A stretch of DNA of 64,000 bases from Escherichia phage EC1-UPM. Each line of letters begins with the position of its first letter. The first letter of the stretch is position 1. Under the pieces are notes generated by a model. It had not been told where the DNA came from. It ran no database searches and worked only from the letters and a program-made list of their open reading frames with translations. Shown here piece after piece: positions 7,910-60,100 of the stretch. Where the stretch lies: sequence record NC_041906.1, one strand, 5' to 3'. The position numbers and the translations under genes are program-made.

Positions 7910-7934
7910 GGTTTAAAACTTATGGAGCCAGGAA

Positions 7935-8123
7935 ATGTATAAAGAAATTGCATTCTTCTCATTCTTACTTGGTGGTTTATTAGGTGCAGGAATTGTAGCT
8001 ATTTCTAATACCTACTTTGGTTCTACTCCAAACTCTGTAACACAAACCCTCAAGCATGAATGTGAACTTAATATCCCTCGTAATCAAAACTGTGTAATGC
8101 AGTTCGTACCGGAGAAGAAATGA
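7935..8123 (+). CDS. small membrane protein (62 aa)
   Basis: N-terminal TM segment FFSFLLGGLLGAGIVAI; GGAG RBS. Confidence 0.4.
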   Translation: MYKEIAFFSFLLGGLLGAGIVAISNTYFGSTPNSVTQTLKHECELNIPRNQNCVMQFVPEKK

Positions 8124-12036: not shown

Positions 12037-12109
12037 GTAGCTGCCTAAATAGCCCAGCATAGTTGGGCTATTTGTGAAGAAACTAACTCAACCCCACATA
12101 GGAACCATC

Positions 12110-12352
12110 ATGGAATCTTTAGCAGCAATTCTTGTTCTGTTATTTGTATTAGCGGTATACCTTATCCCTACTATCATTGCTTTTGCACGAGGCCATGCCT
12201 CTAAGTGGGGCATTGGTGTGCTTAATATCGTATTAGGCTGGTCACTGGTATTCTGGGTAGTAGCACTGATTTGGGCACTGTCTAATAAAGGTCAGAGCCA
12301 GGTTACAAATGTAACTGTTGTACAAACCAACGGTGGCAGTAAAGCAGAGTAA
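12110..12352 (+). CDS. superinfection-immunity-like membrane protein (Imm family)
   Basis: YLIPTIIAFARGH...LNIVLGWSLVFWVVALIWA matches recalled Imm family signature; two TM helices. Confidence 0.55.
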   Translation: MESLAAILVLLFVLAVYLIPTIIAFARGHASKWGIGVLNIVLGWSLVFWVVALIWALSNKGQSQVTNVTVVQTNGGSKAE

Positions 12353-12426
12353 CTAATCTAAGCATCATTACATAGTGGTGCTTGTGGAAGTTGCTTCCAG
12401 CTCATTGCTTATCCATCTCCTAACCC

Positions 12427-12455
12427 AAGCCCACCTAACCCGTGGGCTTTTTTAA
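12427..12455 (+). terminator. rho-independent terminator
   Basis: AAGCCCAC..GTGGGCTT stem followed by TTTTTT. Confidence 0.6.
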
Positions 12456-12469
12456 TTACAGGTACTCTT

Positions 12470-12850
12470 ATGACAAACAGACAAAATGGTAAGTCTATCT
12501 TGTATGGGCTGGACTTAAGTAAACTAGAACAAACTGCAATGCTTGCTTTGGGTAAAACTGTCCATGGCCAAGTGGAGAGTAAAATTGAATTAGATCTTTA
12601 TGCAACAATTCAGACTCTTATTCAGAAAAAATGGATTACTAGCAGACCTTTTCCTTCATACATTCCCCCAGAACCTCATCTGAAAGCTAAGGTAGACCGA
12701 ATCATAGATAAGTTCTGGCTTAATCCATGTAAGGATGACATGCAACTTTATCTGGCTCAAATACAAAAGAACCCCCGTACTAAGGATGTATTCAAAGGTA
12801 AGAGTACTACTCACCACTACCCCTGGTATAGAAGAGGTAGTAAATACTAA
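12470..12850 (+). CDS. hypothetical protein (126 aa)
   Basis: ORF. Confidence 0.4.
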   Translation: MTNRQNGKSILYGLDLSKLEQTAMLALGKTVHGQVESKIELDLYATIQTLIQKKWITSRPFPSYIPPEPHLKAKVDRIIDKFWLNPCKDDMQLYLAQIQKNPRTKDVFKGKSTTHHYPWYRRGSKY

Positions 12851-38600: not shown

Positions 38601-41600
38601 GCGACCTTGAGCATCAAACTCAATGTTGTTAGCACCCATAATGGTATCGAACTTCTGCTGTGCATAATAACGGTCAGCAGGGTTAGTACTATCTGGGTCA
38701 GCCATGAATGCTTCGACGGTCAGGTTCTTAGTAACGTGTGTATAGTATTCCTGTGCACGAGCCATGGCAGCAGGATTAATAGCAGCCTCGGTAGCGAGTG
38801 CAGCAACAATGTTAGTGAAGAGACGTTGTTCCTGCATGTTCATGGTGAAGCCATGAGCCTGAACATCACGAGTTACTTTGGTTGCATTCACTACTGCATC
38901 AGAGAACTTACCTTTACGAATTACTTGCTGTACTGGTTCCGAACCAATGTAGTCAGTAATCAGTTTATCAAAGGTTTTCCCTAACTCTTCCAGACGAGTA
39001 TTGTTACCGTATGCTTTGTTATGGAACAGAGTAGTGTCTTTAGCTACAGCAGCAGTAGGAGCTTGTCCACGCATTACTACAGCAGAGTTAAACAGTAAAC
39101 CTGAGAACATATCATCTGCATTAGCAGGAGCTTTCTTACGACCAAATACCAGACGTTTGATTGCCTCATATACAGCCTGAACCATAGCCTTAAGTGCAGT
39201 GGTTTTCTTCTGCTTACTAATCAATTCTCGGTTGGTTAAACCCCAGGCCATGTACTCGTTCAATGCAGCAGCTTTAGCCATTGCTGGTTCAATGAAGCCA
39301 TTAGACAAGTGACCATTAATGGTATTAAGTGCATCAGCATATGCTTCACGTACTGCCGGAGATTCATCCTTAACATCCAGAGTACGGAACTGGTTCATCA
39401 GGTCTTCAATGTTCTGGACTGCTTCATTAGGAGTACCCTCGTAGTGAGCCAGTACAGATTCAAAAGTAGAAGCATGTACCAATTCATGAACCAGAGTCTC
39501 TAAGGAAGGGGTAACTAAGTAGATGGTTTTATCTTCAAAGTTAGTCCAGCCATATGCATTACCAGCTTCAGCAGCTTCAATATCTTCCGGTGCTGGGCGA
39601 GTAATATTCTTCTCAATGGCGTAGGCATCCAGTTGAGCAGGTGTACCGTAAACAACTTTATAGTCTTTAGCAGCAAGGGATTTCTGTATTTCTTTCAATA
39701 CTGCTTGCTGTTCAGGAGACATCTCTTTAGCCAGTTTAGTAATGGCAGTATTAGACAGTAGACGTACACCAGATTTCAGTACACGACCAACCATCTCCAT
39801 AGCAGGTACTTCAACCACTGGCACTTCCTTCACTGGTTCTACCTTCGTTGGTTCCGCTTTAGTAGCACGTACTGCTTCACGACGCTTGTTTAGTTCAGCA
39901 TCAAACAGTTCGTTCAGCTTAGCTACTTGCTGGTCTACAGTAAGACCTTCCAAAGAAATTTTACCGTTGTTCACATAAGGAGCGCCTACAGCAGCCATCT
40001 GGTCAACAGTGACCTGTACCTGGTCCATTACCTTGTGACGAATATCTACACCCAAAGCAATGTTACGCAGATTACGCTCAATCAATGCAATACCAGAATC
40101 TCTAATCATAGAAATTTTATAATCTCTATCACCATCTACTCTGGCAATATGAGCACGTTGCTCAAAGTCTAAAGCAGACTTCGCAATAGCATCTATTGCT
40201 GCATCGGATAACTTATTTAAATCAACATTCTTAGCAAACTTAGAGAAAGACTCATATACATTCTTGATAGGGTTACCCTGCCAGGAAATATATACAGCCT
40301 CATTAGCTTTACGGCTTGCATCAGTAATGTCATTGATACCAATGTTCATACCATCAAAGATTTTCAGGGTATTCTTCGGAGCACCTTTCATAGTAGAAAG
40401 GGTCTGCATCATCATGCCATCACCAGTACCGATGGTCATAAATGGAATACCTGCTACACCTGCCTGCGAAGGAGCATAGATGCTCATTGGCACACGCATA
40501 CGGTCATCTAAGTTGGTAGCCAGTACCTGGTTAGCAACATCAGTGTTTTCACTGCCAGCAATGTAGAAAGTCTGTGAGCCAGTCTTAATCATTGGAGCCA
40601 GAGGAGCTAAGCTATTCTGAATTTCATTCAGTTCTTTCTGTGTTAAGAAATCACCCTTCTTCCATGTTGGGTCTTTTTCTTTTTCTGCCAGCTTAGCCTG
40701 TACTGCTTGTTGGAACATATCCTGCAATACCAGAGATTGAATCTGAGTAGCCTTCTGCAAATTCTCAGTAGAGTGCATCAACCCCTCACCAACAGTGAAC
40801 CGGATACCTTGTCTCATTGGCTCAACAAAGAAGTGCAGCATATTCTCTTGTAAGTTCTTCAGAGAATCCCCGGATACGGTAAACCCCTGGGGATTTAACT
40901 CACCAGTCAGAACACCATCTACTTCCTTAATAAATAACCTACCTTTGCGTTTGGCTGGAATTTTGCCAGTCAATGCTTCCATAGAAGTAAGGAAGGTATC
41001 CAGCATAGCCTGAGCATCAGCCTCAGACGCAGCCTCCTTACCAAACATCGCCATAGCCGGAGAAATGCTAGGGTCAGCAGCACGTGCTTTCAGAACATCG
41101 CTTAGGCGTTCATAAATGGAATCAGTAATTGCACTTACCATTTTGCCAGCAATACCACGAGCACCAGAACCATAGATGGTAATGGTCAGTGGGTTTTTGG
41201 CGATACCACGTTTCAGGTCCAGAGTACCATCTTCATTCAAGTTAAAATCTTTGATGAACAAATCCATTAACTTCTGGAGATGGTCTATCTGGTTTATAAC
41301 AGAAATATCCTTACTATAAGCATTGCGTAATTCATTTAGATAGAATTGCAGACTATTAGTAGATGCTTCATACAGGTCAACATCGTCTTCCTGAGTATGA
41401 TGCTCATTCATAGTCTTACCAGCTTTACCAAAGAACAAACCACCTTTAGCAGTATTCTTAATCCAGTTTGAAGTGAACTTACCTCCAGTCATTAATACCA
41501 TTGCGTTGATTGGACCGTTGGTTACACCATCAGCTTCAACGTACAAAGGAGTATTAAAGTTGGCACGGTCATCACTGTTCAGGTAACGGGCATATTCCAT

Positions 41601-44600
41601 AAGAGCCATGAGAGCTACAAAGGATTTATCATTACCAAGAGATGTTCTCAGGATATCCACTGCATCAGTTGGTAAGTATCCAGACTTATCAAACTCAACC
41701 ATCATATCTACAGCAGGCTTCAGCTTACCTTCCAGAGCTTTGGTAAGTTCTTCTGACATAGTTTCACGGGTCATTTTATGAACTTTGATACCCAATGCCT
41801 GAGCCAGTCCAAGCTGGAAGCCTGAAAAATCTTCGTTGTTCTGGTTCGATAAATCCAGGGTAGCTTTGGTAGGTAAGATAGCCTCACGAACCAGCTTAGC
41901 TGATTGGGGGGTATATTTACCTAACATCTGCATACGACCAACACGGGTCATATTGTAAGCATAGTGGATAGGTACAGAAGAAATGTCTTTACTCTGTGCT
42001 CTTACCTGTTCAATAACAGAGAACAATTGGTTATAAGAGTCTTCTACTGAACGGTTCTTACCTTCCAGCGATTTAGCGTGGTTCTCGTTAAGTAATTCTT
42101 TATTCAGAGTACCAGCACCCATCAGTTCGAGGATACGGTCTTTACCTAATGCCTCATAGAACTGAACCATTGGGGTATGTACAAAGAACTCTGTATCCTG
42201 TTCTGCTTTAAGAGCAGCTTTCTGTTCTGGAGTATTACGAACAGCAGGGTTACGTAACTGTGTATGAGCCACGGAAGGAATATCATCACCCAGATACAAT
42301 TTCTCTGCTGGTTCTAAGAGTACAGCCTCCTCGATAGCAGTAGGATAATTATTAATTGCATCATTATCTTCTAACTTATCAATGGTATACAGACCAATCG
42401 TCTTATTGGATTCTGGGTCAATCTCAGACACATCCAGCATAGACTCTTTAACTTCACCCATCTCAATGAAAGAAGACAGAATCTCTGTAGCCATTGCCAC
42501 TGGGATACCCTTGGTATAACCAAGTGGTGCATCGGCATTACGGTTAAGCCCCCAGTAAGACTCAATCTTTTGAGCCAGTGAGTTAGTAGCTTCAACCAGG
42601 GTCTGAGCATTCTCGAAGTCAGCCAGAATACCTTCTGGTAACAAAGACTCATTTACACCAGTAATAGCAGCTACGTCTTTCATGTCTTTAATGGCAGCAT
42701 TCTGTGTAGCAGTAAGTCGCCATTGCAGACCAGCAAGTACAGCAGTCTCTAACAACTGGTCATTGAACTTAAAGGTATCACCATCTTTTTCTACGATGTT
42801 AAGTAACTTACCACCCACCCAACGGTTAGCCTCAGTCCCTTCTGCAAAACGTTTACCAACGTTCTTGTTAGCAAGGAACTTAGCCAGACGGTCAGACAGG
42901 GTAGTCTTCAGAGTTTCACCGAAATCAAATAAGTCCTGATAACGCTTAATCACATCACTTGTGAGAGCGTTATTTTCTTTTTGAGTGAATGCTTCAAAGC
43001 GAGCAACGGAAGACAATGCTTTCTTAACATCAGTCAAAGGAGACTCGGAACCAATGGTACGAGACTTAGGTTCTTCTGGTAGAGAAAATGCTTTAAGGAA
43101 CTGGTTCGGTGTCTTGTCATTGTTATAGACAGGGAACACTGTTTCCATTTGAGATAGAGGTTTACCACCAACGGTATAGTCTGCTTTCAGTTGAGCCAGA
43201 GATACTTCTTCCTTCTCAACGTTATTAGTGTTACGCCCAGACGTATCTACACCAACCTGAATCAGTGCATTGTTTGCTTCTACAAATGATTGAACAGTAT
43301 TAAATTGTTCAGGAGTTAGTTTCTGATTATCAAATAGTTGTAAAGATACAAATGGTTGTTCACTGCCTTTGTAGAAGGTAGAGCGAATAGCACCAGTATC
43401 TAGTGACATATCTCGATAACCATCGTGTCCAAATACATCAGACAGACTGATGTGGTCGCCATTGGAACCAACAACAGTACCATCAGCAAATAACCATGGA
43501 CTCTCCCTACGATCACCATACTTATTAAGAGTATCTTGAGAAATGGTATTCTCTTTTACATAAGCATCCTGTTCAGATTCAGTAGGTTGCTCGATGGTAT
43601 CCTCATTAGTGAGGGTAGCATCCTGTTTTTCAGACTGATTCTCAGGTTCTTTTACAGGCTGTGGTTTAGACTCTTTAGTAGTGGGTTCTGTTTTAACAGC
43701 TTCACTAACAGAGGGTTTAGTCTGTACAGTAGGGGTAACTGGTTCCTGTTTTGTAACAGGAGTTTCATCAACCTGATTCACTGGTTCACTAGTCTGTTGG
43801 GATTGAGCAGCATCAAGATTGCCCTGACGGAACTCTTTAACTACCTGGGCAGCAGGCTTGTCTAGACGTGAATCCAATGGGGTAACTTTAACATGAGAAA
43901 CATTAAGCTCCGGGTAAGCCGTAGCAAGTGCGTTAGCAATATCAGCTACGGTCTTGGCTTCCAGTCCTACTTGCTGGGCAAACTTAACCGACTTGGTATC
44001 ATACGGATTGACACCGAGGCCAGTACGACTACGTACCCATTCACGCGAAGGAGTAAGAGCCTGATAATGGACAGACTTATTCTTATCCGCATTCCCAGAA
44101 ATCAGATGCTCATTCAACGCTCCGACCTTATTCTGCATGTGCTGGGCGAACTTCATAAAGTCGTCGAGATAAGCGGAAGCCAAATCGAAGTTACCAGAGT
44201 TGTACGCAGAACGAATGCGTTTAGCATGTTGCAACGCAGAGTACTGGCCTTCATTAGAACGAGACTCGTCGGTTTTAATTTGTTTACTAACAATGTCCTG
44301 AGGACGTAAGCCTAGTTCTTCTGCTTTAGCGTCAAATTCTCGTGCTCCTTGCAATAGAGCAGCAGCAGATTGCAGGGCAGCACGCTGACGATTCCCTAGC
44401 GTAATCTTACCTTCACTTGCATGTTTCAGAACCATGTTCACTGAGTCTGCATCCAGTACTTCTGGAGACATATCAGCAGCCATAGCAATGTTGTTTGCCT
44501 GGGCTTGGTTAGCTTCTTCAGTAGCCTTCAGTTTACCTGCTTCAGCCTGTTCCTGAATCATGGAATGAATAGCACGGAATGCACGGAGTACCTTCGGTGT

Positions 44601-46523
44601 ATTCTGAACGTTAGCCATCAGGCCAGAGAACTGGTCTACGATTGCAGCAGCAGGAGAACCTTGTTCCAGATTAGCCAGAGCACCTGGGTCACGGTTAATG
44701 AAGCTATCCATAGACATGATGTTGTCATACATCTGGATTGCAGCTTCCATTTGAACGTTAGGGTCTTCAGCAGTATTAACCAGGTCAGCCATTTTCTGAA
44801 TAGCTTCAACACGGTTAGTGGAACCAGAAACAGCTTCACGGATTGCAGGACTAGCTTGTTCTAGTTCTACTGGGTCAAACTTCATTGCCTGAGTTAAGTC
44901 AGCAGCATACTGAGTAGCAGCAGCTTTCTCTTCAGGAGAAATATCCATTGCATCTACTGCTTCCTGAACAGTTGCTTGTGCTTGTTCTGCCTGAGCAGTA
45001 GCTTCTTGTGCAGCAGCGTTAACTGTAGCGTCTGATACGGGAGATGCTTGTTCATTACGCTTAGCTACTTCTTCCCCACGTTGAACCAGAATGTTAGTAA
45101 TAGGAGAAGCTACTTTTGCTAGTGCCTTACCAGCCAGAGAAGCACCAGCCAGGGTAGTACGTACAGCAGGACCAACGGCAGCACCAGCAGCCTTAACAGT
45201 TGCACCAGGAGCTTGAGCAACTCCAGCAGAACCAAAGCCATACAACGCACCAAGACCAGTTTGTTCACCCACACCTTTAAGCAATTCACGATTAGCATCT
45301 ACATTACCTTGAATTGCTTTGTTCTGTGCAAACTGACTTGTACCAGACTGGATACCTTCTTCCACAGTTTCACGGAGCATGTTAGAACCAGCACCGGCCA
45401 GTGAACCTACCTTGAGTGGGTTAAGTTCAAACTTAGATACCAGTGGACCAGTAATAGCAGCAACCGGAGCAGTTAAGCCAGCAGCAGTGATACCTGTTTC
45501 AGATGCAGTCTGACGTCGTGCCTCTTCAGGAGTTAAGCCGTCTTTAATATGCTGTTGGTATACTGGGGATTTAGCAGCCAGTTCACTGAATGGCATTTCC
45601 ATAATTTCATTGGCAGTCTGTTGGTATGCACCACCAGCTTCCATACCACCAATTGCTATAGCAGGTGCAGCAACACGACCAGTAGCTAATGCAGTACGTG
45701 CAGGACGTGAACCTAATTCAGCAGCTAAGGTAATACCCTTAACAGCTTTATCTCCACCTACCATTACTTTACCTAGTGCAGATACACCACGAATTAATGG
45801 GCCACCGGTAAAGAGAGAACCAACACCCTCAGCCAGACCATCTGTAGCAGCCATGCCATTAGATAAGGTGTTAGCAACAGAATCATAAGCATCACGACCG
45901 ATACGAGACAGGGAAGCAACGAGTTCACTTTCTCCTTTATCAATATCCTGCTTATAGAGTTTCTCATTTTCCTGTGCAGATATTACGTTCTGGTTCTGTA
46001 CTACATTACGACGAGCATTCAATGCATCAGACTGTAGGTTGTGTACACCTTTATTCAACCAGTCAAGACCGGAAGCAATGGATGCCCCGGCATTATCATT
46101 GACCAAGCCTGTGCCAAGAGCAGCAATGCCCCCGAGGGTATTAGCAACACCAAGACCAACACCAGAAAGGGTATCACCAAGTGCTTCACCATATGTACGA
46201 CTCTTAGTTAAATCACGACGAACAGCATTAGCTGCATTGACACGAGCATTGAGAATATCCATTCCTTGCTCATTGCCATATTTATTTATGATTTCGAGAG
46301 GAGAGGCATTAGTAAAATCTGCCTGAATAGAACCTGGGTCAAATGCACCAGCACCTAAGTTACCAGCACGACCTGCCTGTAATTGGTAAGCGTTCTGTGG
46401 AGTTAATTGGAAAGGGTTTTGCCCTTGTTCAGCTTGTTTCCGAGAGGTTGCAGTAGAGACATCGACTTGCTTAGCAGTAGTGATGCTGTCTGCGAAACCT
46501 GCCAGACGGTCAAATGTTGACAT
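35685..46523 (-). CDS. giant virion-encapsidated RNA polymerase (vRNAP, N4 gp50-like)
   Basis: ~3600 aa ORF, hallmark of N4-like phages; ATG at 46523 with AGGA RBS (track start 46541 is TTG). Confidence 0.9.
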   Translation of the reverse strand: MSTFDRLAGFADSITTAKQVDVSTATSRKQAEQGQNPFQLTPQNAYQLQAGRAGNLGAGAFDPGSIQADFTNASPLEIINKYGNEQGMDILNARVNAANAVRRDLTKSRTYGEALGDTLSGVGLGVANTLGGIAALGTGLVNDNAGASIASGLDWLNKGVHNLQSDALNARRNVVQNQNVISAQENEKLYKQDIDKGESELVASLSRIGRDAYDSVANTLSNGMAATDGLAEGVGSLFTGGPLIRGVSALGKVMVGGDKAVKGITLAAELGSRPARTALATGRVAAPAIAIGGMEAGGAYQQTANEIMEMPFSELAAKSPVYQQHIKDGLTPEEARRQTASETGITAAGLTAPVAAITGPLVSKFELNPLKVGSLAGAGSNMLRETVEEGIQSGTSQFAQNKAIQGNVDANRELLKGVGEQTGLGALYGFGSAGVAQAPGATVKAAGAAVGPAVRTTLAGASLAGKALAKVASPITNILVQRGEEVAKRNEQASPVSDATVNAAAQEATAQAEQAQATVQEAVDAMDISPEEKAAATQYAADLTQAMKFDPVELEQASPAIREAVSGSTNRVEAIQKMADLVNTAEDPNVQMEAAIQMYDNIMSMDSFINRDPGALANLEQGSPAAAIVDQFSGLMANVQNTPKVLRAFRAIHSMIQEQAEAGKLKATEEANQAQANNIAMAADMSPEVLDADSVNMVLKHASEGKITLGNRQRAALQSAAALLQGAREFDAKAEELGLRPQDIVSKQIKTDESRSNEGQYSALQHAKRIRSAYNSGNFDLASAYLDDFMKFAQHMQNKVGALNEHLISGNADKNKSVHYQALTPSREWVRSRTGLGVNPYDTKSVKFAQQVGLEAKTVADIANALATAYPELNVSHVKVTPLDSRLDKPAAQVVKEFRQGNLDAAQSQQTSEPVNQVDETPVTKQEPVTPTVQTKPSVSEAVKTEPTTKESKPQPVKEPENQSEKQDATLTNEDTIEQPTESEQDAYVKENTISQDTLNKYGDRRESPWLFADGTVVGSNGDHISLSDVFGHDGYRDMSLDTGAIRSTFYKGSEQPFVSLQLFDNQKLTPEQFNTVQSFVEANNALIQVGVDTSGRNTNNVEKEEVSLAQLKADYTVGGKPLSQMETVFPVYNNDKTPNQFLKAFSLPEEPKSRTIGSESPLTDVKKALSSVARFEAFTQKENNALTSDVIKRYQDLFDFGETLKTTLSDRLAKFLANKNVGKRFAEGTEANRWVGGKLLNIVEKDGDTFKFNDQLLETAVLAGLQWRLTATQNAAIKDMKDVAAITGVNESLLPEGILADFENAQTLVEATNSLAQKIESYWGLNRNADAPLGYTKGIPVAMATEILSSFIEMGEVKESMLDVSEIDPESNKTIGLYTIDKLEDNDAINNYPTAIEEAVLLEPAEKLYLGDDIPSVAHTQLRNPAVRNTPEQKAALKAEQDTEFFVHTPMVQFYEALGKDRILELMGAGTLNKELLNENHAKSLEGKNRSVEDSYNQLFSVIEQVRAQSKDISSVPIHYAYNMTRVGRMQMLGKYTPQSAKLVREAILPTKATLDLSNQNNEDFSGFQLGLAQALGIKVHKMTRETMSEELTKALEGKLKPAVDMMVEFDKSGYLPTDAVDILRTSLGNDKSFVALMALMEYARYLNSDDRANFNTPLYVEADGVTNGPINAMVLMTGGKFTSNWIKNTAKGGLFFGKAGKTMNEHHTQEDDVDLYEASTNSLQFYLNELRNAYSKDISVINQIDHLQKLMDLFIKDFNLNEDGTLDLKRGIAKNPLTITIYGSGARGIAGKMVSAITDSIYERLSDVLKARAADPSISPAMAMFGKEAASEADAQAMLDTFLTSMEALTGKIPAKRKGRLFIKEVDGVLTGELNPQGFTVSGDSLKNLQENMLHFFVEPMRQGIRFTVGEGLMHSTENLQKATQIQSLVLQDMFQQAVQAKLAEKEKDPTWKKGDFLTQKELNEIQNSLAPLAPMIKTGSQTFYIAGSENTDVANQVLATNLDDRMRVPMSIYAPSQAGVAGIPFMTIGTGDGMMMQTLSTMKGAPKNTLKIFDGMNIGINDITDASRKANEAVYISWQGNPIKNVYESFSKFAKNVDLNKLSDAAIDAIAKSALDFEQRAHIARVDGDRDYKISMIRDSGIALIERNLRNIALGVDIRHKVMDQVQVTVDQMAAVGAPYVNNGKISLEGLTVDQQVAKLNELFDAELNKRREAVRATKAEPTKVEPVKEVPVVEVPAMEMVGRVLKSGVRLLSNTAITKLAKEMSPEQQAVLKEIQKSLAAKDYKVVYGTPAQLDAYAIEKNITRPAPEDIEAAEAGNAYGWTNFEDKTIYLVTPSLETLVHELVHASTFESVLAHYEGTPNEAVQNIEDLMNQFRTLDVKDESPAVREAYADALNTINGHLSNGFIEPAMAKAAALNEYMAWGLTNRELISKQKKTTALKAMVQAVYEAIKRLVFGRKKAPANADDMFSGLLFNSAVVMRGQAPTAAVAKDTTLFHNKAYGNNTRLEELGKTFDKLITDYIGSEPVQQVIRKGKFSDAVVNATKVTRDVQAHGFTMNMQEQRLFTNIVAALATEAAINPAAMARAQEYYTHVTKNLTVEAFMADPDSTNPADRYYAQQKFDTIMGANNIEFDAQGRSSLLPTFVGLAMVSEEVRKVLADIPVMKADKKSGNTVDAMLTNIGTAAMASLNARVAGDTKASNVQEGMDALAQTIMQTSLNAQSFYDSVATPTGNAIDRANQYLVDSIDVLSTRALGGAREVAANTKNPLVKGAAHAAQLVAAIATEKNGAIVAEGVMAAMNQGKVWQPFHDLVNDIIGRTKSNASVYDLIKAVRAQVQADRQQFREHLPTTIASKFSRKLTNDEWKAMHTGMGKTDLAVLRDTMPLDEIRDLLTDQKIVDREVNKLEADLQKQAGRNWPLISRKSKQLAQYMINGTVGNNLLRNATAISRLLGERKTTSSIVDVAQLDKLITLYALEAMNKTDREMLSSLAQTEIEGMDFATSYLVGQRKDEMAKAKSDSRATLNQYKGYIPSENKQGVNLIVAEDSQFADLIEKSYVRLGTYQGSSANRGSARSYYFAPVQAQAPFSQGILQNVRNTAGGADLGTGFTMGTMVAGRITDKPSVDRITKALARGERGNEPLLPVYDANGNVVAYEQSIDPNMLKHIEGDNHLARAIGVWRGRQVEEAKAQRFNDMLIENLHSMYENDLKMSASNKFQYVNLFDSKLDPVTADALKLMNSETRRKAESLFGPGELWVRRDMLNDALGYRAASVGDAWSGNSRWSPETLDTFKKAMLGVFGNRAYKYVMGGENLVQNLVKEAKTLIVVKSVVVPAVNFLANLYQMVARGVPVKNIAKSIPQKTAEINQYLKSRLRQVDAEAELRAATNPNQIRKLKAEIQSITDSHKRLSIWPLLEAGEFSSIADAGIGRDDILITEGKLHEYMDKLADKLPKSVRNAGRYALITKDTALFQGIQKTVEYSDFIAKAIIYDELTQRKGKTREEALGRVTEEFINYDRLPGRFRGYMESVGLMWFYNFKIRSAKVAVSMIRNNPVHAAMAMLAPTPTMFGNVGLPIQDNIFSIAAQGNLGYSFGFGQGLRAHNLNPWLNLTN

Positions 46524-46590
46524 AGCATGATTCCTGTTCAAACTTATATCGTATAAGAAGATTCACTGTACAGTAAGTGAATGTAAGAGA

Positions 46591-46626: not shown

Positions 46627-48573
46627 TTATCGAGGTTGCATATAGGGAGGTAAACCCTCTGCTAATTTTCGATAACGTTTAGCTCGTTCTTCATCTTCAC
46701 GACTGCGTTCACGCTCTACGGAAGCATTAGAACGGAAGTTCTGTGGAACCAGGTTCCCTTGATTAGCTACCACAGTATTAACAGCAGCATCCAGTGCAGC
46801 CCGTGCTCTTACTAACTCAGCTTCACGAGCAGGAATAGTAGCAGCAAGTCCGCTTTGACCAGCAGCCACACGACGACGAGTATCAGCAAGTAAGGTTTCT
46901 GCTTGATCTACCTGGTTCTGGGCATTAGCAATATTACCCTGTACCTGAGTAAGAACATTATCACGAGCAGTAGCTTCAATGCCTTCCCCACGTCGCACTG
47001 AACGTGCTAGTTCTCTGGCAACGGTATCGTCAATACGAATACCATTACCACCTTCCGGTGATTTCCCTGGTGTAAGCGCATCCCAGGTACGACCAAGAAT
47101 ACCCTCTGGTACGTTTGTAATAGATTGCTTAAGAATCTCAGCAGCTACAGCAGGAGACTGCCCCGATTCCTGCATAACTTTATTCAGTCGAGCTACCATC
47201 CATCCTTTCTCAGAACCTTTAAAAGCATCCTTGAGAAGACGGTCTGCTACTTCACCAATGGTGGAGTTGTCACGTAATGCACGAGCATAGTTAGCAGTAA
47301 TGGTTCCAGTATTATCTTCAGACTGGCGTGCAGCAACTGTATTGCCTGCCATGTTTGAAACTACTTGCTGGGTCTGTAGCTGGTCAAGAGGTGCACCTAC
47401 TTCTGCCTGTGCAATTAACTGACGTGCTTCACTCCACGGCATATCCTTATAACCACCTACACCCAAGTCAGGCAATGCAGCCCAAGTCTTGGAAAGGTTA
47501 CCACTCTTACGGTCATTAAAGATTGCTTCAGCTATTTTGTCCTGTACTTCAGGAGTCATTTGCTGATTACGCCAGTCTGAACCAAGTACCTTAGGTGCAT
47601 AGTCTTCCAGGGTAGCTTTATTAATCTGGAATGCTCCTACAGGGGAATGACCTTGTGACGGGTTATTAATCATAGTTTGCTGATGATTAGTAACCTCACC
47701 CAGTGTCATTTCAGTAATAGGCTTATCAGTAGCAGCAAAGGTATAGGTTGCATCATAAGGGGAACCAGAACGAGTACCAGCAGTTCCAGGAGCAGAGCCA
47801 GAAGGGGATGTAGCATAAGTACCAGGGAATCTCTCGTTCACACCCCGCATGATTGCAGAACGTACACCTGGGGAAGCATTCTGCATAGCAGACTCTGCCA
47901 GTGTAAGAGCATCCATAGGAGTGGAAGCACTACGGAAGATGTCAGTCAATATACCGGATGCAGCTTGTGAATCAGCATCATTACGTTGACGTACATTAAG
48001 GTCAAAGCGACTACTTGCCTGATTAATAGCAGCACCACCTTGCCCCTGAAGACGGCTCAACATATCCAGTTGTTGGTCAGCAGGAAGTGCAGATAATGCA
48101 TCACGGGTTTGACCTAATGCAGTATTAATACGGTTCTGGTCACCTGACTGATAAGCCTCAGACAGCAAACGAATAGCCGGTGAAGCATTATCTAGGGCAG
48201 AGTCAGTATTCTGTAAACGACCGAAACGATAAGCATTGTAGTCATTGGTTCCTTGCTGACCTTGCTGAGTCAGAAGAGTACCTGCTCGCTCATCCAGATT
48301 CTGAAGAGTACGCTGACTTACTAATGAAGGGTCAACCCCCTGGAACAATGCACCTGATGCTAAAGCATTACGATACTCAGTAGGGTCTTGGTATCGCATA
48401 GCATTCATCATGACGGCATTGCCAGCCTCCTGCTTGGCAGCGTTCTGGAAATTACCCAGTGCATCACTTAAGCCGGAGGTAGCGTTACCAATCATGTTTC
48501 CAAATGTGCGAATGCTGTCACCTACTCCAGAGAAGTTAGGTGCATCAACATTTCTCCATGTTATCTGGCTCAT
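46627..48573 (-). CDS. internal virion protein (N4 gp51-like) with possible lysozyme-like segment
   Basis: 648 aa, Q/N/G/A-rich; segment EMTLGEV...GAFQINKATLEDY resembles transglycosylase core. Confidence 0.5.
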   Translation of the reverse strand: MSQITWRNVDAPNFSGVGDSIRTFGNMIGNATSGLSDALGNFQNAAKQEAGNAVMMNAMRYQDPTEYRNALASGALFQGVDPSLVSQRTLQNLDERAGTLLTQQGQQGTNDYNAYRFGRLQNTDSALDNASPAIRLLSEAYQSGDQNRINTALGQTRDALSALPADQQLDMLSRLQGQGGAAINQASSRFDLNVRQRNDADSQAASGILTDIFRSASTPMDALTLAESAMQNASPGVRSAIMRGVNERFPGTYATSPSGSAPGTAGTRSGSPYDATYTFAATDKPITEMTLGEVTNHQQTMINNPSQGHSPVGAFQINKATLEDYAPKVLGSDWRNQQMTPEVQDKIAEAIFNDRKSGNLSKTWAALPDLGVGGYKDMPWSEARQLIAQAEVGAPLDQLQTQQVVSNMAGNTVAARQSEDNTGTITANYARALRDNSTIGEVADRLLKDAFKGSEKGWMVARLNKVMQESGQSPAVAAEILKQSITNVPEGILGRTWDALTPGKSPEGGNGIRIDDTVARELARSVRRGEGIEATARDNVLTQVQGNIANAQNQVDQAETLLADTRRRVAAGQSGLAATIPAREAELVRARAALDAAVNTVVANQGNLVPQNFRSNASVERERSREDEERAKRYRKLAEGLPPYMQPR

Positions 48574-48585: not shown

Positions 48586-49035
48586 TTAACGAGTTAGCTT
48601 GTTAGCTGCAATGTAAGCATCAGCTGAAGACTGGTCACGGTTTTCTGCCGTAGCACGACTACGAGCACGGTCTTCAAGTGCAGTGTTATAAGACTTAATC
48701 TGGTTATTCAGGTTAGTGTTAGTAACACTCTTAGCAAAGTTCAGCTGGTCTTTGGCTAACTTATTAGCCTGAAAACCACTATAGATATTTGCTAACGAAC
48801 CAAGAGCACCCAGTCCTAGTTGGAAGGTAGGTATGTTCATACCAAGCTGGTCAGCTGAGCCATTACCCGAACCAAACAGTGAGTTATCTAGGTTTCCATT
48901 TAAAAAATCCATACCAACTACCTGTCCTGGCTGATAATTCATAGCTGGGGTATTAAAGTTCTGATTGTTATTAGACATCCAAGACATAGCAGCTGGCTGT
49001 GGGGTTTGGTTGCCTGTAAAGAATGACAAATCCAT
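48586..49035 (-). CDS. virion protein (N4 gp52-like)
   Basis: ATG at 49035 with AGGAGA RBS (track start 49056 is TTG). Confidence 0.5.
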   Translation of the reverse strand: MDLSFFTGNQTPQPAAMSWMSNNNQNFNTPAMNYQPGQVVGMDFLNGNLDNSLFGSGNGSADQLGMNIPTFQLGLGALGSLANIYSGFQANKLAKDQLNFAKSVTNTNLNNQIKSYNTALEDRARSRATAENRDQSSADAYIAANKLTR

Positions 49036-49048
49036 GGGGATTCTCCTG

Positions 49049-51703
49049 TTAAACAAGGTCAGTATTAAGAGTCATGTCAGAGTAGTTACCTATCATATCT
49101 AGAGACAAGTCAGCTATATCTGAACCAGTCATGAGCGTACGTGATAAGAATGAATCCAGCGACTCTATTGACACGAATTGCATTGGGTCAATTACACCCT
49201 GTCCAGCAGTACCAAACATTTCTTCATACTGCTTATTGATTGCCATCATATCAGTATTGTACTGCTGCATTACTTTCTCTGCTTTCTGAATAGTAGCAGC
49301 CGTAGATGCATTAATATACTGGCTGATACCATTACCCACTGAACTGGTAAGCTGCATGATATTTTGGGCATTCATCATCTCACTCGCCAGAGTAGATAGA
49401 GATGTACCGGTAGACAAAGCAGTACCAACATTCATAGCTACCATTGAAGCGATAGCAGCAATGATAAAGCCCAGCTTGTCCCCGAACAGTGCGGCAGATA
49501 CTTTAGTGATAATAGATACAAGAATCATTCCAGCAATAGCATTTGCTACAGCACCCACTATCACAGCAGCTAATCCAACAAAGCCAAGTGATGCACCAAC
49601 TGCACCATACGCTCCAAGTATACCTGCTCCACCAGCACCAGCTGTAAATACAGAGATAACCACAGCAACTACAACAACCAAAATCTTAAAAGCAGAGGAA
49701 TGATACCATTTCTTCTTAACCTTCTTATATGAGTTCATCACTAAGTAGGAACAGGCAGTAGATAACTGAGTACTTCGAACCAGTGACATGGAACGGTATA
49801 TGTTAGTGTGTAGTGGAATAATGAATCCACTTTCTTCTGCATCACCCATTGCCCCAGCAACATCAATGTGTACTGATTTATTCTTATATACCCTGTTATA
49901 GTGATTTAGACCCAGTACTCTTAGTTTACGGTAAGTGTTATTACCATCCTGCCAAAGTAACTCGTATTCCTGCATAGTGTAAAATGTAGGAGTAACCTCC
50001 AATTCCTTAACTGAACCGGAGTTACGAGAGGTACGCATATTCTTGCGAGTAAGGGTTATATCCCCTGCATACCTGGCTCGAAGCTGACCCTGTTTAGCAC
50101 CAGGCCATGCTTTACCGGAGTGAGTAGTTTCAAATACATAGTTCCAGCCAATAGTCATGTCATACTTGTAATGTTTACTGCTATGTACCCTAAACTCTCG
50201 CTTAGGTATGACAGGGTATTCCGGCAGTGGAGGGGGTGTTCCAACAATATGACCTTCATGCCTGTTCCACCATTCTACATATGTATCAACCGCATCATTG
50301 GCTGCCTGATAACCTGCAATTACTGCTTCCAGAGTAGGGTAGGTTGGGTCAGGCGGAAATGCTTCAGTAGCCATCTGAAAGAAACGGTAGATGTATTCCT
50401 TAGCAGTATCCTCTGGGGTATTAAGAGATACACCGAATGTGCCATAAATGTATTGGATATCGCCTATGTCCTTATTCTTCTTAAGCTCAGTTATTACATT
50501 ATTGAGTTTACCACCAGTAGCTTTATAAAGAGCTTTCTTACAGTGAGGGTAGATTGGGTCATTCTCTACCCATTGTTTATCATTCCTGATCGGAATGAAT
50601 GGGTAGAATCGGTTGTCAGTAGCTTCAGTCTCAAACAGTGAATCCAGTACAACGTTACCAGAGTTCTGTTTATAGATAAGCATCTTAGGTGTACCAACAG
50701 CAGTCATCTCAGTATCAGTACGAGTAGTCTGCGATGAATACTTACGAACCAGTGTCTCTGTGGTTGTAGTAATTGTATCAGTACGAGTAACACCACCACC
50801 TATATCAACTACATTAGTAGTTACAGAAGTACTGGATTGAACCTCACCAAACTTTTTATGAGTCATTACCCTGTCAGATACAACCACAGTTACATCATTA
50901 GGTTTCTCAGTAAATCCTCTACGGTAAACCTTAACGTAGGAGTTCCAGTTATCCACACTTGGTTCAGTGACGGTACTGTCTTCATCCGGTCTACCGTCAG
51001 AGTAAACAGAATGAGTATGTATAGTCTTAGTAAGGTTAGTTGTATTAGCCGTCGTATCACTTGAGACAGTAGTCCATAACAAAGTGGAGGGTAAATCATC
51101 CTCATTATCATAGACAGTAGTTGGTCCCTCTACCGGTGGATTGGTAGATGGGGACTTATAGAATGAGTAATCAGCATAGAGATACAAAGCACCTGGTTCA
51201 AAGTTAGTGGGTGTGAATTTAATAGTAGAACCTCCATCCAGGGAGGTCATAGTAATTTCATTAGTATCTTCATCAATATCTATGTCGAATCGTTCCATGA
51301 TTCGACTTGGAGCATTCTCATAAAGATACTGGTCACACCATTGTTCAAAGTCAGCAAAGCCAATCTCTGCTGCCTGAACATAAACAGACTCTCCAGCAGG
51401 TGGTGTAATTTGACCCTCTATTACAGTAGGGTCAATCTTAGCCAGTACACCTAATGAAGAACCAGCCATACCAACTTCTGAATCATAGTGGTTCTTACTC
51501 CAGCTGGAGAACAGTCGCATACGAATACCAGGTCCATTCATATAACTATCAGAGATAGTGTCTGCCATAGTGAATCCTGTATTGGAAACAATGTTACCAA
51601 TGACTACAGTCTTCATATAGTTAGGACGTTTGTGTATATCCCCTGCCATGTTATAGACAGAGGATGCTACGTATACTTTGGTCTTCCCACTGAATAAACC
51701 CAT
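49049..51703 (-). CDS. large internal virion protein (N4 gp53-like) with Gly/Ala-rich membrane-spanning segment
   Basis: 884 aa; hydrophobic VVVAVVISVFTAGAGGAGILGAYGAVGASLGFVGLAAVIVGAV; TAATATG coupling with upstream gene. Confidence 0.55.
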   Translation of the reverse strand: MGLFSGKTKVYVASSVYNMAGDIHKRPNYMKTVVIGNIVSNTGFTMADTISDSYMNGPGIRMRLFSSWSKNHYDSEVGMAGSSLGVLAKIDPTVIEGQITPPAGESVYVQAAEIGFADFEQWCDQYLYENAPSRIMERFDIDIDEDTNEITMTSLDGGSTIKFTPTNFEPGALYLYADYSFYKSPSTNPPVEGPTTVYDNEDDLPSTLLWTTVSSDTTANTTNLTKTIHTHSVYSDGRPDEDSTVTEPSVDNWNSYVKVYRRGFTEKPNDVTVVVSDRVMTHKKFGEVQSSTSVTTNVVDIGGGVTRTDTITTTTETLVRKYSSQTTRTDTEMTAVGTPKMLIYKQNSGNVVLDSLFETEATDNRFYPFIPIRNDKQWVENDPIYPHCKKALYKATGGKLNNVITELKKNKDIGDIQYIYGTFGVSLNTPEDTAKEYIYRFFQMATEAFPPDPTYPTLEAVIAGYQAANDAVDTYVEWWNRHEGHIVGTPPPLPEYPVIPKREFRVHSSKHYKYDMTIGWNYVFETTHSGKAWPGAKQGQLRARYAGDITLTRKNMRTSRNSGSVKELEVTPTFYTMQEYELLWQDGNNTYRKLRVLGLNHYNRVYKNKSVHIDVAGAMGDAEESGFIIPLHTNIYRSMSLVRSTQLSTACSYLVMNSYKKVKKKWYHSSAFKILVVVVAVVISVFTAGAGGAGILGAYGAVGASLGFVGLAAVIVGAVANAIAGMILVSIITKVSAALFGDKLGFIIAAIASMVAMNVGTALSTGTSLSTLASEMMNAQNIMQLTSSVGNGISQYINASTAATIQKAEKVMQQYNTDMMAINKQYEEMFGTAGQGVIDPMQFVSIESLDSFLSRTLMTGSDIADLSLDMIGNYSDMTLNTDLV

Positions 51704-58413: not shown

Positions 58414-58920
58414 TTATTCCTGTTCAAAAAGTTTACGGTCAGCCTGAATCTGTTTACCCAACTCAATTAGTTGGCTGTCACGGAGTCTAACAGTTGCTCT
58501 GAGTTCTTCAACCAAACGTCTGCCTTCTTCAAGATTGTTGTCGAGTCTGGATGCATGGCTTGCAAGACTTCTGCACTCAAAGGTTCCGGCTTCGGCTTGA
58601 CGTTTATATACCGATGCTCGTCTTTCAGACTGTTGCATCCGGCTGTCGTAATCACTGCTAACGCGAGCAAGCTCGCTTGCGTAATTACTCTCAGCCGTCT
58701 GCAACCGGGAAGTGAGTAACCCAACTTCATAACTATGGTTTCTTTGGAGAGCATTGTATTTGTCCTGTAATTTTTGCGTTGCCTTTTGGTCTTCAACCTT
58801 TTGGGCATCCCACTTCTTTTGAACAGTAGACTGCCCATTGGAATTACCCCAAAAGTAAATGGTGGCCCCTAGGACCACCACCAGAAGATAAGGCCAACCT
58901 TTAGAGATTAGCATCTTCAT
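58414..58920 (-). CDS. i-spanin (Rz-like)
   Basis: N-terminal [18 protein letters not shown] then coiled-coil-rich periplasmic domain; directly after endolysin gene. Confidence 0.55.
58467..58730 (-). CDS. o-spanin (Rz1-like lipoprotein) embedded in +1 frame of i-spanin gene
   Basis: [32 protein letters not shown] signal peptide with lipobox-like TAGC, then Pro-rich PKPEP; wholly inside Rz ORF. Confidence 0.45.
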   Translation of the reverse strand: MKLGYSLPGCRRLRVITQASLLALAVITTAGCNSLKDEHRYINVKPKPEPLSAEVLQAMHPDSTTILKKADVWLKNSEQLLDSVTAN

Positions 58921-59536
58921 TACATGCCTCCAGTGGCACATTGCCTATTCGGTTAGCTACCCAACCATACGTAAAGTCTGGCATGTTTAATGAGGTGTAG
59001 TGGTTCAGTTGTTTGGCATCAAGTAACTTAATCATTACCTGACATGCTGCAACTTTGCCTCGTTTTTTCTGTAATGCTTTATATGCATTAACAGTACTTG
59101 TACCGACTTTACCATCAACCTGTATTTTAGGGTAGTCTTTGCCATCACGGGACATTTCGTTAAGAGATAACTGCAACCACTTAGCAGGACGGGTTACACC
59201 AGTGTTAACACCAGCATCAACCAGTTTGTGTGTTACAGCAGGAGATATATCAGCGAAAGCTACGAAGTTAGGCTTAAGTACGTAATCATCAATGTATATC
59301 TCAGCAGCCATCTCTTTAGATAAACCTTTCATAGAACCATCCCAACCATATTCAGTAGCCAGAACTTCTTTATGAGTCTTAGCTACAGATTGGGTAATAC
59401 CATGATTGGTTTCCCCACCTGGGTCACGAGGATTGTTTACATATCCTCCTTCCATATAGAACACTGCCCCCAGAATAGCAGCGATAACTCCTCCCACTGC
59501 ACCACCTTTCGCAGCAAGTTTCTGTTTAGCTTTCAT
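58901..59536 (-). CDS. endolysin, GH108 N-acetylmuramidase with C-terminal peptidoglycan-binding domain (N4 gp61-like)
   Basis: EGGYVNNPRDPGGETNHGIT is the GH108 signature. Confidence 0.75.
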   Translation of the reverse strand: MKAKQKLAAKGGAVGGVIAAILGAVFYMEGGYVNNPRDPGGETNHGITQSVAKTHKEVLATEYGWDGSMKGLSKEMAAEIYIDDYVLKPNFVAFADISPAVTHKLVDAGVNTGVTRPAKWLQLSLNEMSRDGKDYPKIQVDGKVGTSTVNAYKALQKKRGKVAACQVMIKLLDAKQLNHYTSLNMPDFTYGWVANRIGNVPLEACNEDANL

Positions 59537-59786
59537 GTGAATTTTCCTTTGGACGGAATCGTATCAATCTACCAACGATGTTTAAGGCAAACAATGCGAT
59601 TGCAATATTGGAACCATGGGGAATATCTTCCAGGATGTGACGGGGTAATCCTGTCAGCATTGGTTGAATGATATCTATGGCAGAAAACATAATTAGCCCA
59701 AGTGTACTAATCTGAATGGATGCCCATTTCCAGCATCTTTTCCAATTAGGTACTAACTCTACCTTTCTTTTTAGCCTGCGAACCAT
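59526..59786 (-). CDS. holin candidate (two TM helices)
   Basis: TM1 ASIQISTLGLIMFSAIDII, TM2 IAIALFALNIVGRLI; overlaps endolysin start; start codon uncertain (59852 or 59786). Confidence 0.4.
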   Translation of the reverse strand: MVRRLKRKVELVPNWKRCWKWASIQISTLGLIMFSAIDIIQPMLTGLPRHILEDIPHGSNIAIALFALNIVGRLIRFRPKENSHES

Positions 59787-60100
59787 GCGAATATCTCCCG
59801 TCTTGTAGCAGCTAATACACCAATAATTGCACCTGCCCCAGCCCATACCCACTTACCAAAAATTCCAGCACCAACCACTTTATGTTTAATAGTAATGAAC
59901 TCTTCGATAGTAGGTTCGTTCTTAGCTAAACTATCCTCCACGTTCTTTAGTCTGTTGCCTATGTCATTGATTGAATCCCGTAGTTCTACCAGAGTTTCCT
60001 CTAGTTTCTCACGGTCCTGTCTGTCTCTTGCCTGGTTATCAAACAAAGTCTTCAATCGTTCCTCCAGTCTGACTAGGAGCAGTTCACCCGATTCATTCAT
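59771..60100 (-). CDS. tail-anchored coiled-coil membrane protein (lysis regulator candidate)
   Basis: Charged coiled-coil N-terminus, single C-terminal TM VVGAGIFGKWVWAGAGAIIGVLAA. Confidence 0.4.
   Translation of the reverse strand: MNESGELLLVRLEERLKTLFDNQARDRQDREKLEETLVELRDSINDIGNRLKNVEDSLAKNEPTIEEFITIKHKVVGAGIFGKWVWAGAGAIIGVLAATRREIFAWFAG

What the first reader, a model, noticed from the sequence alone, without database searches (positions are those of the whole stretch)
12110..12352. Superinfection-immunity (Imm-like) membrane protein in the middle region
Motif YLIPTIIAFARGH...LNIVLGWSLVFWVVALIWA with two TM helices resembles the Imm family that blocks DNA injection by superinfecting phage; it has its own terminator downstream. 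This would be a candidate phage-phage exclusion function.
Basis: partly seen in the sequence, partly recalled or inferred. Interest (0 to 1): 0.5.

Follow-up and report, generated by a model that had tools for sequence, protein, structure and literature searches.

The report
Phage superinfection-immunity (Imm) membrane protein gene
This is a real 80-residue membrane-protein gene of the same family as phage T4's Imm, which stops a second phage from delivering its DNA into an already infected cell. It is already annotated this way in closely related N4-like coliphages, so the finding is correct but ordinary.

Summary
Window 12110..12352 (+) encodes an 80-aa protein with two hydrophobic segments. 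It matches Pfam PF14373 Imm_superinfect over the full model (61.7 bits against a cut-off of 27.9) and PHROG 1039 "immunity to superinfection" (6.7e-30). It aligns directly with T4 Imm (28% identity, E 4e-10).

Both T4 Imm residues whose mutation weakens exclusion are conserved: T4 R33 is window R27, and T4 W50 is window W44. The gene is under strong purifying selection (dN/dS about 0.02-0.13).

The window is a Gamaleyavirus (G7C-like, N4-like podovirus) genome. Its relatives already carry this gene, annotated "immunity to superinfection" or "putative membrane immunity protein", and one is listed in a 2013 paper. Novelty is therefore nil at the annotation level.

Two points add modest interest. 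Phage N4 lacks the gene, which sits as a cassette inside an otherwise conserved intergenic spacer. Also, a 2026 preprint shows T4 Imm works by binding the T4 tape measure protein, and podoviruses have no such protein. The target of this Imm is therefore unknown: its own N4-type ejection proteins, or the tape measures of competing phages. No exclusion phenotype has been tested for any N4-like Imm.

The parts
12046..12074 (+). Upstream hairpin: 13-bp stem with a 3-nt loop, just after the stop of the gp27-like gene. It is the left boundary of the imm cassette.
   Evidence: Folds at -20.1 kcal/mol, z -3.0. Conserved in relatives. N4 has an analogous hairpin after gp27.
12100..12103 (+). Shine-Dalgarno AGGA, 6 nt upstream of the ATG.
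   Evidence: Read directly from the sequence. Invariant in the four Gamaleyavirus sequences aligned.
12110..12352 (+). imm coding sequence: 80 aa plus stop.
12119..12187 (+). Hydrophobic segment 1 (aa 4-26), with a kink at the invariant Pro20.
   Evidence: Hydropathy maximum 2.91. AF2 helices 2-17 and 19-26.
12155..12280 (+). PF14373 Imm_superinfect domain (aa 16-57).
   Evidence: model positions 1-42 of 42, 61.7 bits.
12188..12205 (+). Short basic loop RGHASK (aa 27-32). Contains R27, the equivalent of T4 Imm R33.
   Evidence: R27 is invariant in alignments A1 and A2. The T4 R33A mutant loses activity (preprint 10.64898/2026.03.06.709160).
12206..12280 (+). Hydrophobic segment 2 (aa 33-57), with a helix break at G43-W44-S45. 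W44 (12239-12241) is the equivalent of T4 Imm W50.
   Evidence: Hydropathy maximum 2.25. AF2 helices 32-42 and 46-57. W44 is invariant. T4 W50A weakens exclusion.
12281..12349 (+). Polar, predicted-disordered C-terminal tail (aa 58-80). From about aa 62 it is allelic among relatives.
   Evidence: pLDDT 50-58. The tail occurs as an 80-aa type and an 83/86-aa type.
12359..12384 (+). Hairpin (11-bp stem) immediately after the imm stop codon.
   Evidence: Conserved in relatives.
12386..12398 (+). Small hairpin GGAAG-TTG-CTTCC. This is where the spacer sequence shared with N4 begins.
   Evidence: N4 has GGAAATTCC at the aligned position.
12427..12455 (+). Intrinsic terminator (8-bp stem plus T6) ahead of the next gene, which starts at 12470.
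   Evidence: The stem arms and the T-run are invariant in all five sequences aligned, N4 included; the loop differs in N4.

Best explanation
The gene encodes an Imm-family superinfection-exclusion protein of a virulent N4-like podovirus (Gamaleyavirus).

Shown here: it is a genuine, selectively maintained 80-aa protein with two hydrophobic helical segments joined by a short basic loop. It is homologous over its whole conserved core to T4 Imm, including the two residues shown to matter in T4.

Inferred: it is transcribed with the + strand middle genes (nucleotide-metabolism and replication block) soon after infection and inserts into the inner membrane. As T4 Imm does with the T4 tape measure protein, it then binds the membrane-inserting, channel-forming component of a secondarily adsorbing phage. 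This prevents an inner-membrane conduit from opening, so the incoming genome is not delivered.

This phage has no tape measure protein. [quoted passage not shown] Their homologues lie at window 46627..48573 and 35685..46541 (- strand).
For: Family: PF14373 at 61.7 bits against GA 27.9, full model. PHROG 1039 at 6.7e-30. T4 Imm hits the same model and aligns pairwise at 28% identity, E 4e-10, with the same length and architecture. The top BFVD structural neighbours are all named superinfection immunity proteins.

Functional residues: T4 R33 and W50 correspond to window R27 and W44. Both are invariant across 20 and 31 aligned homologues. T4 R33A and W50A reduce exclusion, and T4 Imm co-purifies with the tape measure protein fragment (preprint 10.64898/2026.03.06.709160).

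Real gene: dN/dS is 0.02-0.13 in most pairs. It keeps the same position in N4-like lineages whose Imm is only 59-60% identical.

Mobile-element character: absent from 5,426 complete E. coli genomes at DNA level. Present in virulent phages of several families and on a bacterial contig next to an integrase gene.

Plausible self-target: the N4 ejectosome's inner-membrane complex is proposed to be the gp51 C-terminus plus the gp50 N-terminal domain (PMC13434306).
Against: No experiment on any N4-like Imm was found in 7 literature searches, so the function is inferred from one characterised homologue at 28% identity.

The T4 mechanism needs a tape measure protein. The window has no sequence similar to T4 gp29 (tblastn, nothing at E<=10). 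Its gp51-like and gp52-like proteins show no strongly hydrophobic 19-residue segment by Kyte-Doolittle.

Phage N4 does without the gene.

PADLOC has no model that matches.

Topology is unresolved. Positive-inside reasoning gives N-out, loop-in, C-out. Bacterial homologues, however, carry a C-terminal zinc ribbon, which is normally cytoplasmic.
Confidence: 0.7

Rival explanations
1. The protein is a true Imm-family member, but its target is not its own kind. It blocks competing myoviruses or siphoviruses that use a tape measure protein to open the inner membrane (heterotypic exclusion), for example T-even-like or Chaseviridae phages of the same gut hosts.
For: The only mechanism known for the family is binding to a tape measure protein. 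The window phage has no gp29-like protein. The closest Imm outside the N4-like clade belongs to a myovirus, Chaseviridae phage Mangalitsa, at 57-60% identity. The R and W residues needed in T4 are conserved.
Against: By my recollection of Lu & Henning 1989, T4 Imm acts against T-even phages, that is, against its own kind. Identity to T4 Imm is only 28%, so the binding surface has probably diverged. There are no data on specificity.
Confidence: 0.15
2. Its main role is to protect the infected cell's inner membrane from damage by secondary adsorptions (resistance to lysis from without or secondary traumatisation), or to modulate lysis timing or lysis inhibition. Keeping foreign DNA out would then be secondary.
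For: T4 imm mutants show partly defective lysis inhibition, and Imm has been proposed to limit damage from secondary adsorption (review PMC6832632). N4, which lacks imm, shows lysis inhibition, whereas G7C, a Gamaleyavirus, is reported not to (bioRxiv 10.1101/2025.11.12.688109). By homology with the annotated relative, the phage carries an rIIA gene just downstream.
Against: This role would be a consequence of the same molecular act, blocking insertion of the incoming channel, so it is not truly exclusive of the main explanation. The N4 versus G7C contrast is a two-phage correlation.
Confidence: 0.1
3. It is a holin, antiholin or other lysis-related small membrane protein, not an exclusion factor.
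For: It is small, has two hydrophobic segments and a polar C-terminal tail. A review notes that T4 Imm 'reportedly molecularly resembles a holin' (PMC6832632).
Against: The window has a complete, separate lysis cassette on the - strand among late genes: Rz-like spanin 58414..58941, endolysin 58901..59536, holin PHROG 1356 at 59526..59789, and a gp63-like protein at 59771..60100. The imm gene lies among middle genes on the other strand. No holin family matches it.
Confidence: 0.03
4. It is a chance ORF or a non-functional remnant.
For: None beyond its small size.
Against: Pfam E 6e-17. dN/dS is far below 1. 75 close homologues keep an intact frame. The SD and start codon are conserved.
Confidence: 0.01

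Closest known systems
Orthologous 'immunity to superinfection' / 'putative membrane immunity protein' genes of Gamaleyavirus phages (St11Ph5, Bp4, ECBP1, IME11, ShWW44, Moo19, EC1-UPM AGC31537)
   Same: Protein identity is 80-98%. The gene has the same position between the dCTP deaminase/gp27-like genes and the gp28-like/ThyX genes, and the same flanking hairpins and terminator. It is already annotated with this function in GenBank/RefSeq and listed with IPR016410 in PMC3853248.
   Different: Only the C-terminal tail allele differs (80-aa type here, 83/86-aa type in several relatives), plus a few conservative substitutions in helix 1.
Bacteriophage T4 Imm (NP_049660, 83 aa), founding member of PF14373
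   Same: Same length. Same architecture of two hydrophobic segments, a short basic loop (RG(H/S)xSK) and a polar tail. 28% identity at E 4e-10. R33/W50 are conserved as R27/W44. Both are encoded among early/middle DNA-metabolism genes of a virulent coliphage.
   Different: T4 is a contractile-tailed myovirus, and its Imm binds the T4 tape measure protein gp29. This phage is a podovirus with no gp29-like protein and an ejectosome built from gp52/gp51/vRNAP homologues. T4 pairs Imm with the periplasmic Spackle protein; I did not search the window for a Spackle homologue.
Imm of Chaseviridae myovirus Escherichia phage Mangalitsa (QEG07836, 84 aa)
   Same: This is the closest relative outside the N4-like clade, at 57-60% identity. 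It shares the MES N-terminus and a similar ...VVNVGSNN.SNVSQ tail, and lies about 2 kb upstream of a ThyX gene.
   Different: The phage family and virion type differ (a myovirus with a tape measure protein).
Other inner-membrane injection blockers: P22 SieA, HK97 gp15
   Same: These are also proposed or shown to block genome entry at the inner membrane. The T4 preprint cites HK97 gp15 as also acting through the tape measure protein.
   Different: They are prophage-expressed rather than made by a virulent phage, and they were not retrieved by any search run here. I did not compare them directly with the window protein.

Membership tests
Imm_superinfect (Pfam PF14373 / InterPro IPR016410 / PHROG 1039) | Significant full-length match to the family profile, above the curated cut-off | tested here: met
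   PF14373 at 61.7 bits against GA 27.9, model 1-42/42, aa 16-57. PHROG 1039 at 6.7e-30.
Imm_superinfect (Pfam PF14373 / InterPro IPR016410 / PHROG 1039) | Direct sequence similarity to the characterised founder, T4 Imm | tested here: met
   BLASTP 28% identity over 61 aa, E 4e-10. T4 Imm scores 58.2 bits on the same Pfam model.
Imm_superinfect (Pfam PF14373 / InterPro IPR016410 / PHROG 1039) | Small (about 70-90 aa) protein with two hydrophobic helical segments joined by a short basic loop | tested here: met
   80 aa. Hydropathy peaks at aa 4-26 and 33-57, loop RGHASK. AF2 helical hairpin with pLDDT 86-94.
Imm_superinfect (Pfam PF14373 / InterPro IPR016410 / PHROG 1039) | Conservation of residues shown by mutagenesis to matter in T4 Imm (R33, W50) | tested here: met
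   Window R27 and W44 align with T4 R33 and W50 and are invariant in A1 and A2. Mutant data come from the preprint.
Imm_superinfect (Pfam PF14373 / InterPro IPR016410 / PHROG 1039) | Inner-membrane location with a periplasmic N-terminus | not testable with these tools
   Only hydropathy and charge distribution are available. C-terminal zinc-ribbon fusions in bacterial homologues leave the orientation of the C-terminus open.
Imm_superinfect (Pfam PF14373 / InterPro IPR016410 / PHROG 1039) | Confers exclusion: blocks genome entry of secondary phage when expressed | not testable with these tools
   Needs plating and DNA-entry assays. No published test of an N4-like Imm was found.
T4-type Imm-tape measure blocking mechanism (Roa-Eguiara et al. 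2026 preprint) | The excluded phage delivers a tape measure protein with a helical-bundle plus transmembrane domain, which Imm binds | tested here: not met
   This holds for the phage's own virion proteins only: tblastn of T4 gp29 (full length and residues 205-518) against the window gave nothing at E<=10. N4-type phages use gp52/gp51/vRNAP instead. It says nothing about competitor phages. It is a mechanistic feature, not a criterion for family membership.
Holins / antiholins | Encoded in the lysis cassette with endolysin and spanin, and matches a holin family | tested here: not met
   The lysis cassette is at 58414..60100 on the - strand and has its own holin, PHROG 1356. The imm protein matches no holin model.
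Known bacterial anti-phage defence systems (PADLOC-DB) | Match to a defence-system protein model | tested here: not met
   0 families at E<=1.

The most novel reading that the evidence does not exclude
The Imm family is not restricted to tape-measure targets. In this tape-measure-less podovirus, Imm would bind the membrane-inserting part of the N4-type ejectosome (gp51 C-terminus and/or the vRNAP N-terminal domain). It would thereby block entry of the giant virion RNA polymerase and the DNA of a second N4-like phage. That would make Imm a general inhibitor of phage inner-membrane channel formation across virion types, and a genetic handle on the poorly defined N4 inner-membrane complex.
Probability: 0.35. 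Interest if true: 0.5.

Novelty: already known. Interest (0 to 1): 0.17.

Why it matters
As an annotation it adds nothing. The same gene, at 80-98% protein identity, is already labelled an immunity or superinfection-immunity protein in public Gamaleyavirus genomes and in a 2013 genome paper.

Its residual value is as an experimental lead. The T4 Imm mechanism (binding the tape measure protein) was reported only in a 2026 preprint. An Imm homologue that is conserved, under purifying selection, and sits in a phage without a tape measure asks directly what the family recognises. Escape mutants against this protein could identify the inner-membrane component of the N4-type ejectosome.

For phage-therapy cocktails that include G7C-like phages, it is also a candidate cause of interference between cocktail members.

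Tried and rejected
- NCBIfam gave only a sub-threshold hit (12.7 bits against a cut-off of 90), and PADLOC gave none.
- No solved structure of a relative was found, by sequence profile (best E 0.34, a PsaM transmembrane helix, i.e. noise) or by Foldseek against the PDB (0 hits).
- I looked for an Imm homologue in phage N4, both halves of the genome, by tblastn with the window and T4 proteins: nothing better than E 2. N4 gp28, at the equivalent position and of the same length, is unrelated; a global alignment gives 38% identity between it and the product of the next window gene, 12470..12850.
- I looked for a T4 gp29-like target in the window and found none.
- Kyte-Doolittle scanning found no strong transmembrane segment in the gp51-like or gp52-like proteins. 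The N4 paper reports putative membrane helices using a different predictor.
- There is no DNA match in 5,426 complete E. coli genomes. Only 9 distant core matches occur in plasmids.
- The sigma-70 promoter scan found none near the gene. This is uninformative, because N4-type middle genes use the phage RNA polymerase II.
- The original T4 papers (Lu & Henning 1989; Lu et al. 1993) are not held in the library. Statements about T-even specificity and the 'unusual topology' rest on my memory and on secondary citations.
- The GTG start at 12074 (92-aa version) was rejected: it overlaps the hairpin, has no SD and is not conserved.
- I did not run the 1.84-billion-protein representative search or the genome-contig scan. 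Family membership was already unambiguous.

Full report
**What is there**

The ATG is preceded by AGGA at 12100-12103 with a 6-nt spacer. The longer GTG start at 12074 lies in the 3' arm of an upstream hairpin and is changed to GCG or GAG in close relatives, so it is not the start.

Hydropathy shows two hydrophobic segments, at about aa 4-26 and 33-57. They are separated by the loop RGHASK and followed by a polar tail. An AlphaFold2 model built on 31 homologues gives helices 2-17, 19-26, 32-42 and 46-57. pLDDT is 86-94 over residues 1-60, and the tail is disordered.

**Is it real?**

Yes. Over codons 1-61, pairwise dN/dS among the window and eight Gamaleyavirus-type orthologues is mostly 0.02-0.13, with dS 0.1-0.6. 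One nearly identical pair has too few changes to be informative. Against the more distant Mangalitsa copy the ratios are 0.08-0.21 where dS could be computed, but dS there is saturated.

A database search returned 75 close homologues with intact frames, most on contigs of about 72 kb.

**What the window is**

The region is about 92% identical at nucleotide level to Escherichia phages ECBP1, Bp4, St11Ph5, IME11 and others of the genus Gamaleyavirus (Schitoviridae, Enquatrovirinae). These are G7C-like relatives of coliphage N4. The window also holds the hallmark 3618-aa virion RNA polymerase ORF on the - strand.

The gene lies in the + strand block of middle-type genes. The order is: DUF2201 metallopeptidase/VWA protein, dCTP deaminase, a 69-aa protein, imm, two proteins of unknown function, ThyX. 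By homology with the annotated relative, an rIIA gene follows.

**Family membership**

- The protein matches Pfam PF14373 (Imm_superinfect) over the whole 42-position model at 61.7 bits, against a cut-off of 27.9, E 6e-17.
- It matches PHROG 1039 "immunity to superinfection" at 6.7e-30.
- I fetched T4 imm from NC_000866. T4 Imm hits the same Pfam model at 58.2 bits.
- T4 Imm aligns directly with the window protein at 28% identity, E 4e-10, with no gap in the core.
- Invariant positions across Gamaleyavirus homologues and T4 are P20, I23, A24, R27, G28, S31, G34, I35, W44, W49, I54 and W55.
- The best structural neighbours among predicted viral structures are all named superinfection immunity proteins.
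- No relative has a solved structure.

**Already known**

The orthologue is annotated "immunity to superinfection", "superinfection immunity protein" or "putative membrane immunity protein" in the public records of St11Ph5, Bp4, ECBP1, IME11, ShWW44 and Moo19. The EC1-UPM genome paper of 2013 lists it with the T4 Imm InterPro signature (PMC3853248).

**How the family works**

Reviews state that T4 Imm and Spackle together confer exclusion, with Imm acting on DNA injection. T4 imm mutants also have partly defective lysis inhibition (PMC6832632).

A 2026 preprint (10.64898/2026.03.06.709160) reports the following:

- T4 Imm co-purifies with, and by cryo-EM binds, the helical-bundle domain of the T4 tape measure protein gp29.
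- This binding is proposed to prevent formation of the inner-membrane conduit.
- W50A and R33A reduce exclusion.
- The Imm N-terminus faces the periplasm.

With the ungapped 6-residue offset, T4 R33 and W50 correspond to window R27 and W44. Both are invariant. The most likely mechanism here is therefore the same kind of act: an inner-membrane protein made by the resident phage captures the membrane-inserting component of an incoming phage.

**What differs**

This phage is a podovirus. T4 gp29 has no detectable similarity anywhere in the window.

In N4, the trans-envelope channel is built from ejected gp52 (outer membrane) and gp51 (periplasmic tunnel). The inner-membrane complex is proposed to be the gp51 C-terminus plus the vRNAP N-terminal domain (PMC13434306). 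By gene order and length, their homologues are at window 48586..49056, 46627..48573 and 35685..46541.

This leaves two possibilities, and nothing computed here decides between them:

- The Gamaleyavirus Imm recognises these non-tape-measure proteins (self-exclusion).
- It is aimed at tape-measure-bearing competitors.

The closest Imm outside the N4-like clade is from a myovirus, Chaseviridae phage Mangalitsa, at 57-60% identity.

**Evolutionary context**

Phage N4 itself has no Imm homologue. In N4, the 113-nt spacer between gp27 and gp28 contains a hairpin, a short conserved stretch (GGAAATTCC...CATTGCTTA) and a terminator (GCCCAC...GTGGGCTTTTTTAATTA).

In the window, the same conserved stretch and terminator lie at 12386-12455. 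The imm gene, with a hairpin on each side (12046-12074 and 12359-12384), sits between the gp27-like stop and that stretch. So imm looks like a cassette inserted into, or in N4 deleted from, an ancestral spacer. The "own terminator" is the spacer's.

The gene occupies the same slot in two more divergent N4-like lineages. There its identity (59-60%) falls between that of the flanking accessory genes (38-55%) and the conserved enzymes (76-81%). This is consistent with vertical inheritance within that clade.

The family is large: 3,826 proteins at E<=1e-3 among word-sharing candidates. It occurs in T-even-like, Chaseviridae, Obolenskvirus and Salmonella phages with genomes of about 41-47 kb, in a few plasmids, and on a bacterial contig next to an integrase gene. 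The window gene is absent from 5,426 complete E. coli genomes at DNA level.

**Rivals**

- A holin role is unlikely. The window has a full lysis cassette elsewhere: spanin, endolysin, holin PHROG 1356 and a gp63-like protein at 58414..60100 on the - strand.
- A membrane-protection or lysis-timing role is compatible with the same molecular act.
- A chance ORF is excluded.

**Verdict**

The finding is already known from public annotation and is untested experimentally in any N4-like phage. The one non-trivial question is what an Imm protein targets in a phage group that has no tape measure protein.

Noticed in passing
window 12037-12469; L003 (N4) 13034-13146: Phage N4 lacks imm. Its gp27-gp28 spacer keeps the same 3' conserved stretch and terminator found downstream of imm in the window. 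So imm plus one hairpin behaves as a cassette inserted into, or lost from, an ancestral intergenic spacer.
   Followed up: yes
window 12293-12349 (aa 62-80): The C-terminal tail of Imm is allelic among Gamaleyaviruses. There is an 80-aa type (...QVTNVTVVQTNGGSKAE, as here) and an 83/86-aa type (...TTIVNVGSGNQYNVSQTS + SKAE or QSDK). The core is nearly invariant, and the switch is confined to the last ~70 nt of the gene. The meaning is unknown; specificity or topology are possibilities.
   Followed up: partly
P0101, P0105, P0114, P0121; L015 6001-6441: 146-148-aa bacterial homologues carry the Imm domain, a Pro-rich linker and a C-terminal CxxC...CxxC zinc ribbon (UPF0547, 29.9-30.4 bits against GA 29 for two of them). 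One lies on a contig with a phage-type integrase. A zinc ribbon is normally cytoplasmic, which argues that the C-terminus of the family may be cytoplasmic. That conflicts with a simple N-out two-pass hairpin.
   Followed up: partly
window 11365-11817: The dCTP deaminase gene is a divergent allele. Window 11370-11784 has no nucleotide similarity to phage ShWW44, although both flanks are 91-94% identical. The protein is 150 aa against 168 aa and only 52-57% identical to those of other N4-like phages and N4. Phage KKP 3715 covers 96% of the query where most other listed relatives cover 88-90%, so it may share this allele. This looks like a gene-sized allelic replacement.
   Followed up: partly
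window 12470-12850: The gene after imm (126 aa, PHROG 12812, unknown function) is the counterpart of N4 gp28 (80 aa; 38% identity in a global alignment) and is 46 residues longer. In ShWW44 a 1-nt indel near the start disrupts the frame, and only a 47-aa ORF is annotated there.
   Followed up: partly
window 12110-14237; L002 (T4) 1-625; L013 (Mangalitsa) 4001-6973: In three unrelated phage families, imm lies next to or near a thymidylate-synthase-type gene. In T4 it is adjacent to gene 42 (dCMP hydroxymethylase). Here ThyX is 940 nt downstream, and in Mangalitsa ThyX is about 2 kb downstream. This probably reflects shared early/middle expression with nucleotide-metabolism genes.
   Followed up: no
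literature; window lysis cassette 58414-60100: A preprint states that N4 (no imm) shows superinfection-dependent lysis inhibition, whereas G7C (a Gamaleyavirus) does not. The correlation with presence of imm rests on two phages and was not examined further.
   Followed up: no
L003 (N4) 7668-7982: N4 gp18 is annotated 'superinfection exclusion, similar to P22 gp17' in RefSeq. I did not check whether the window has a homologue between 7829 and 9133.
   Followed up: no
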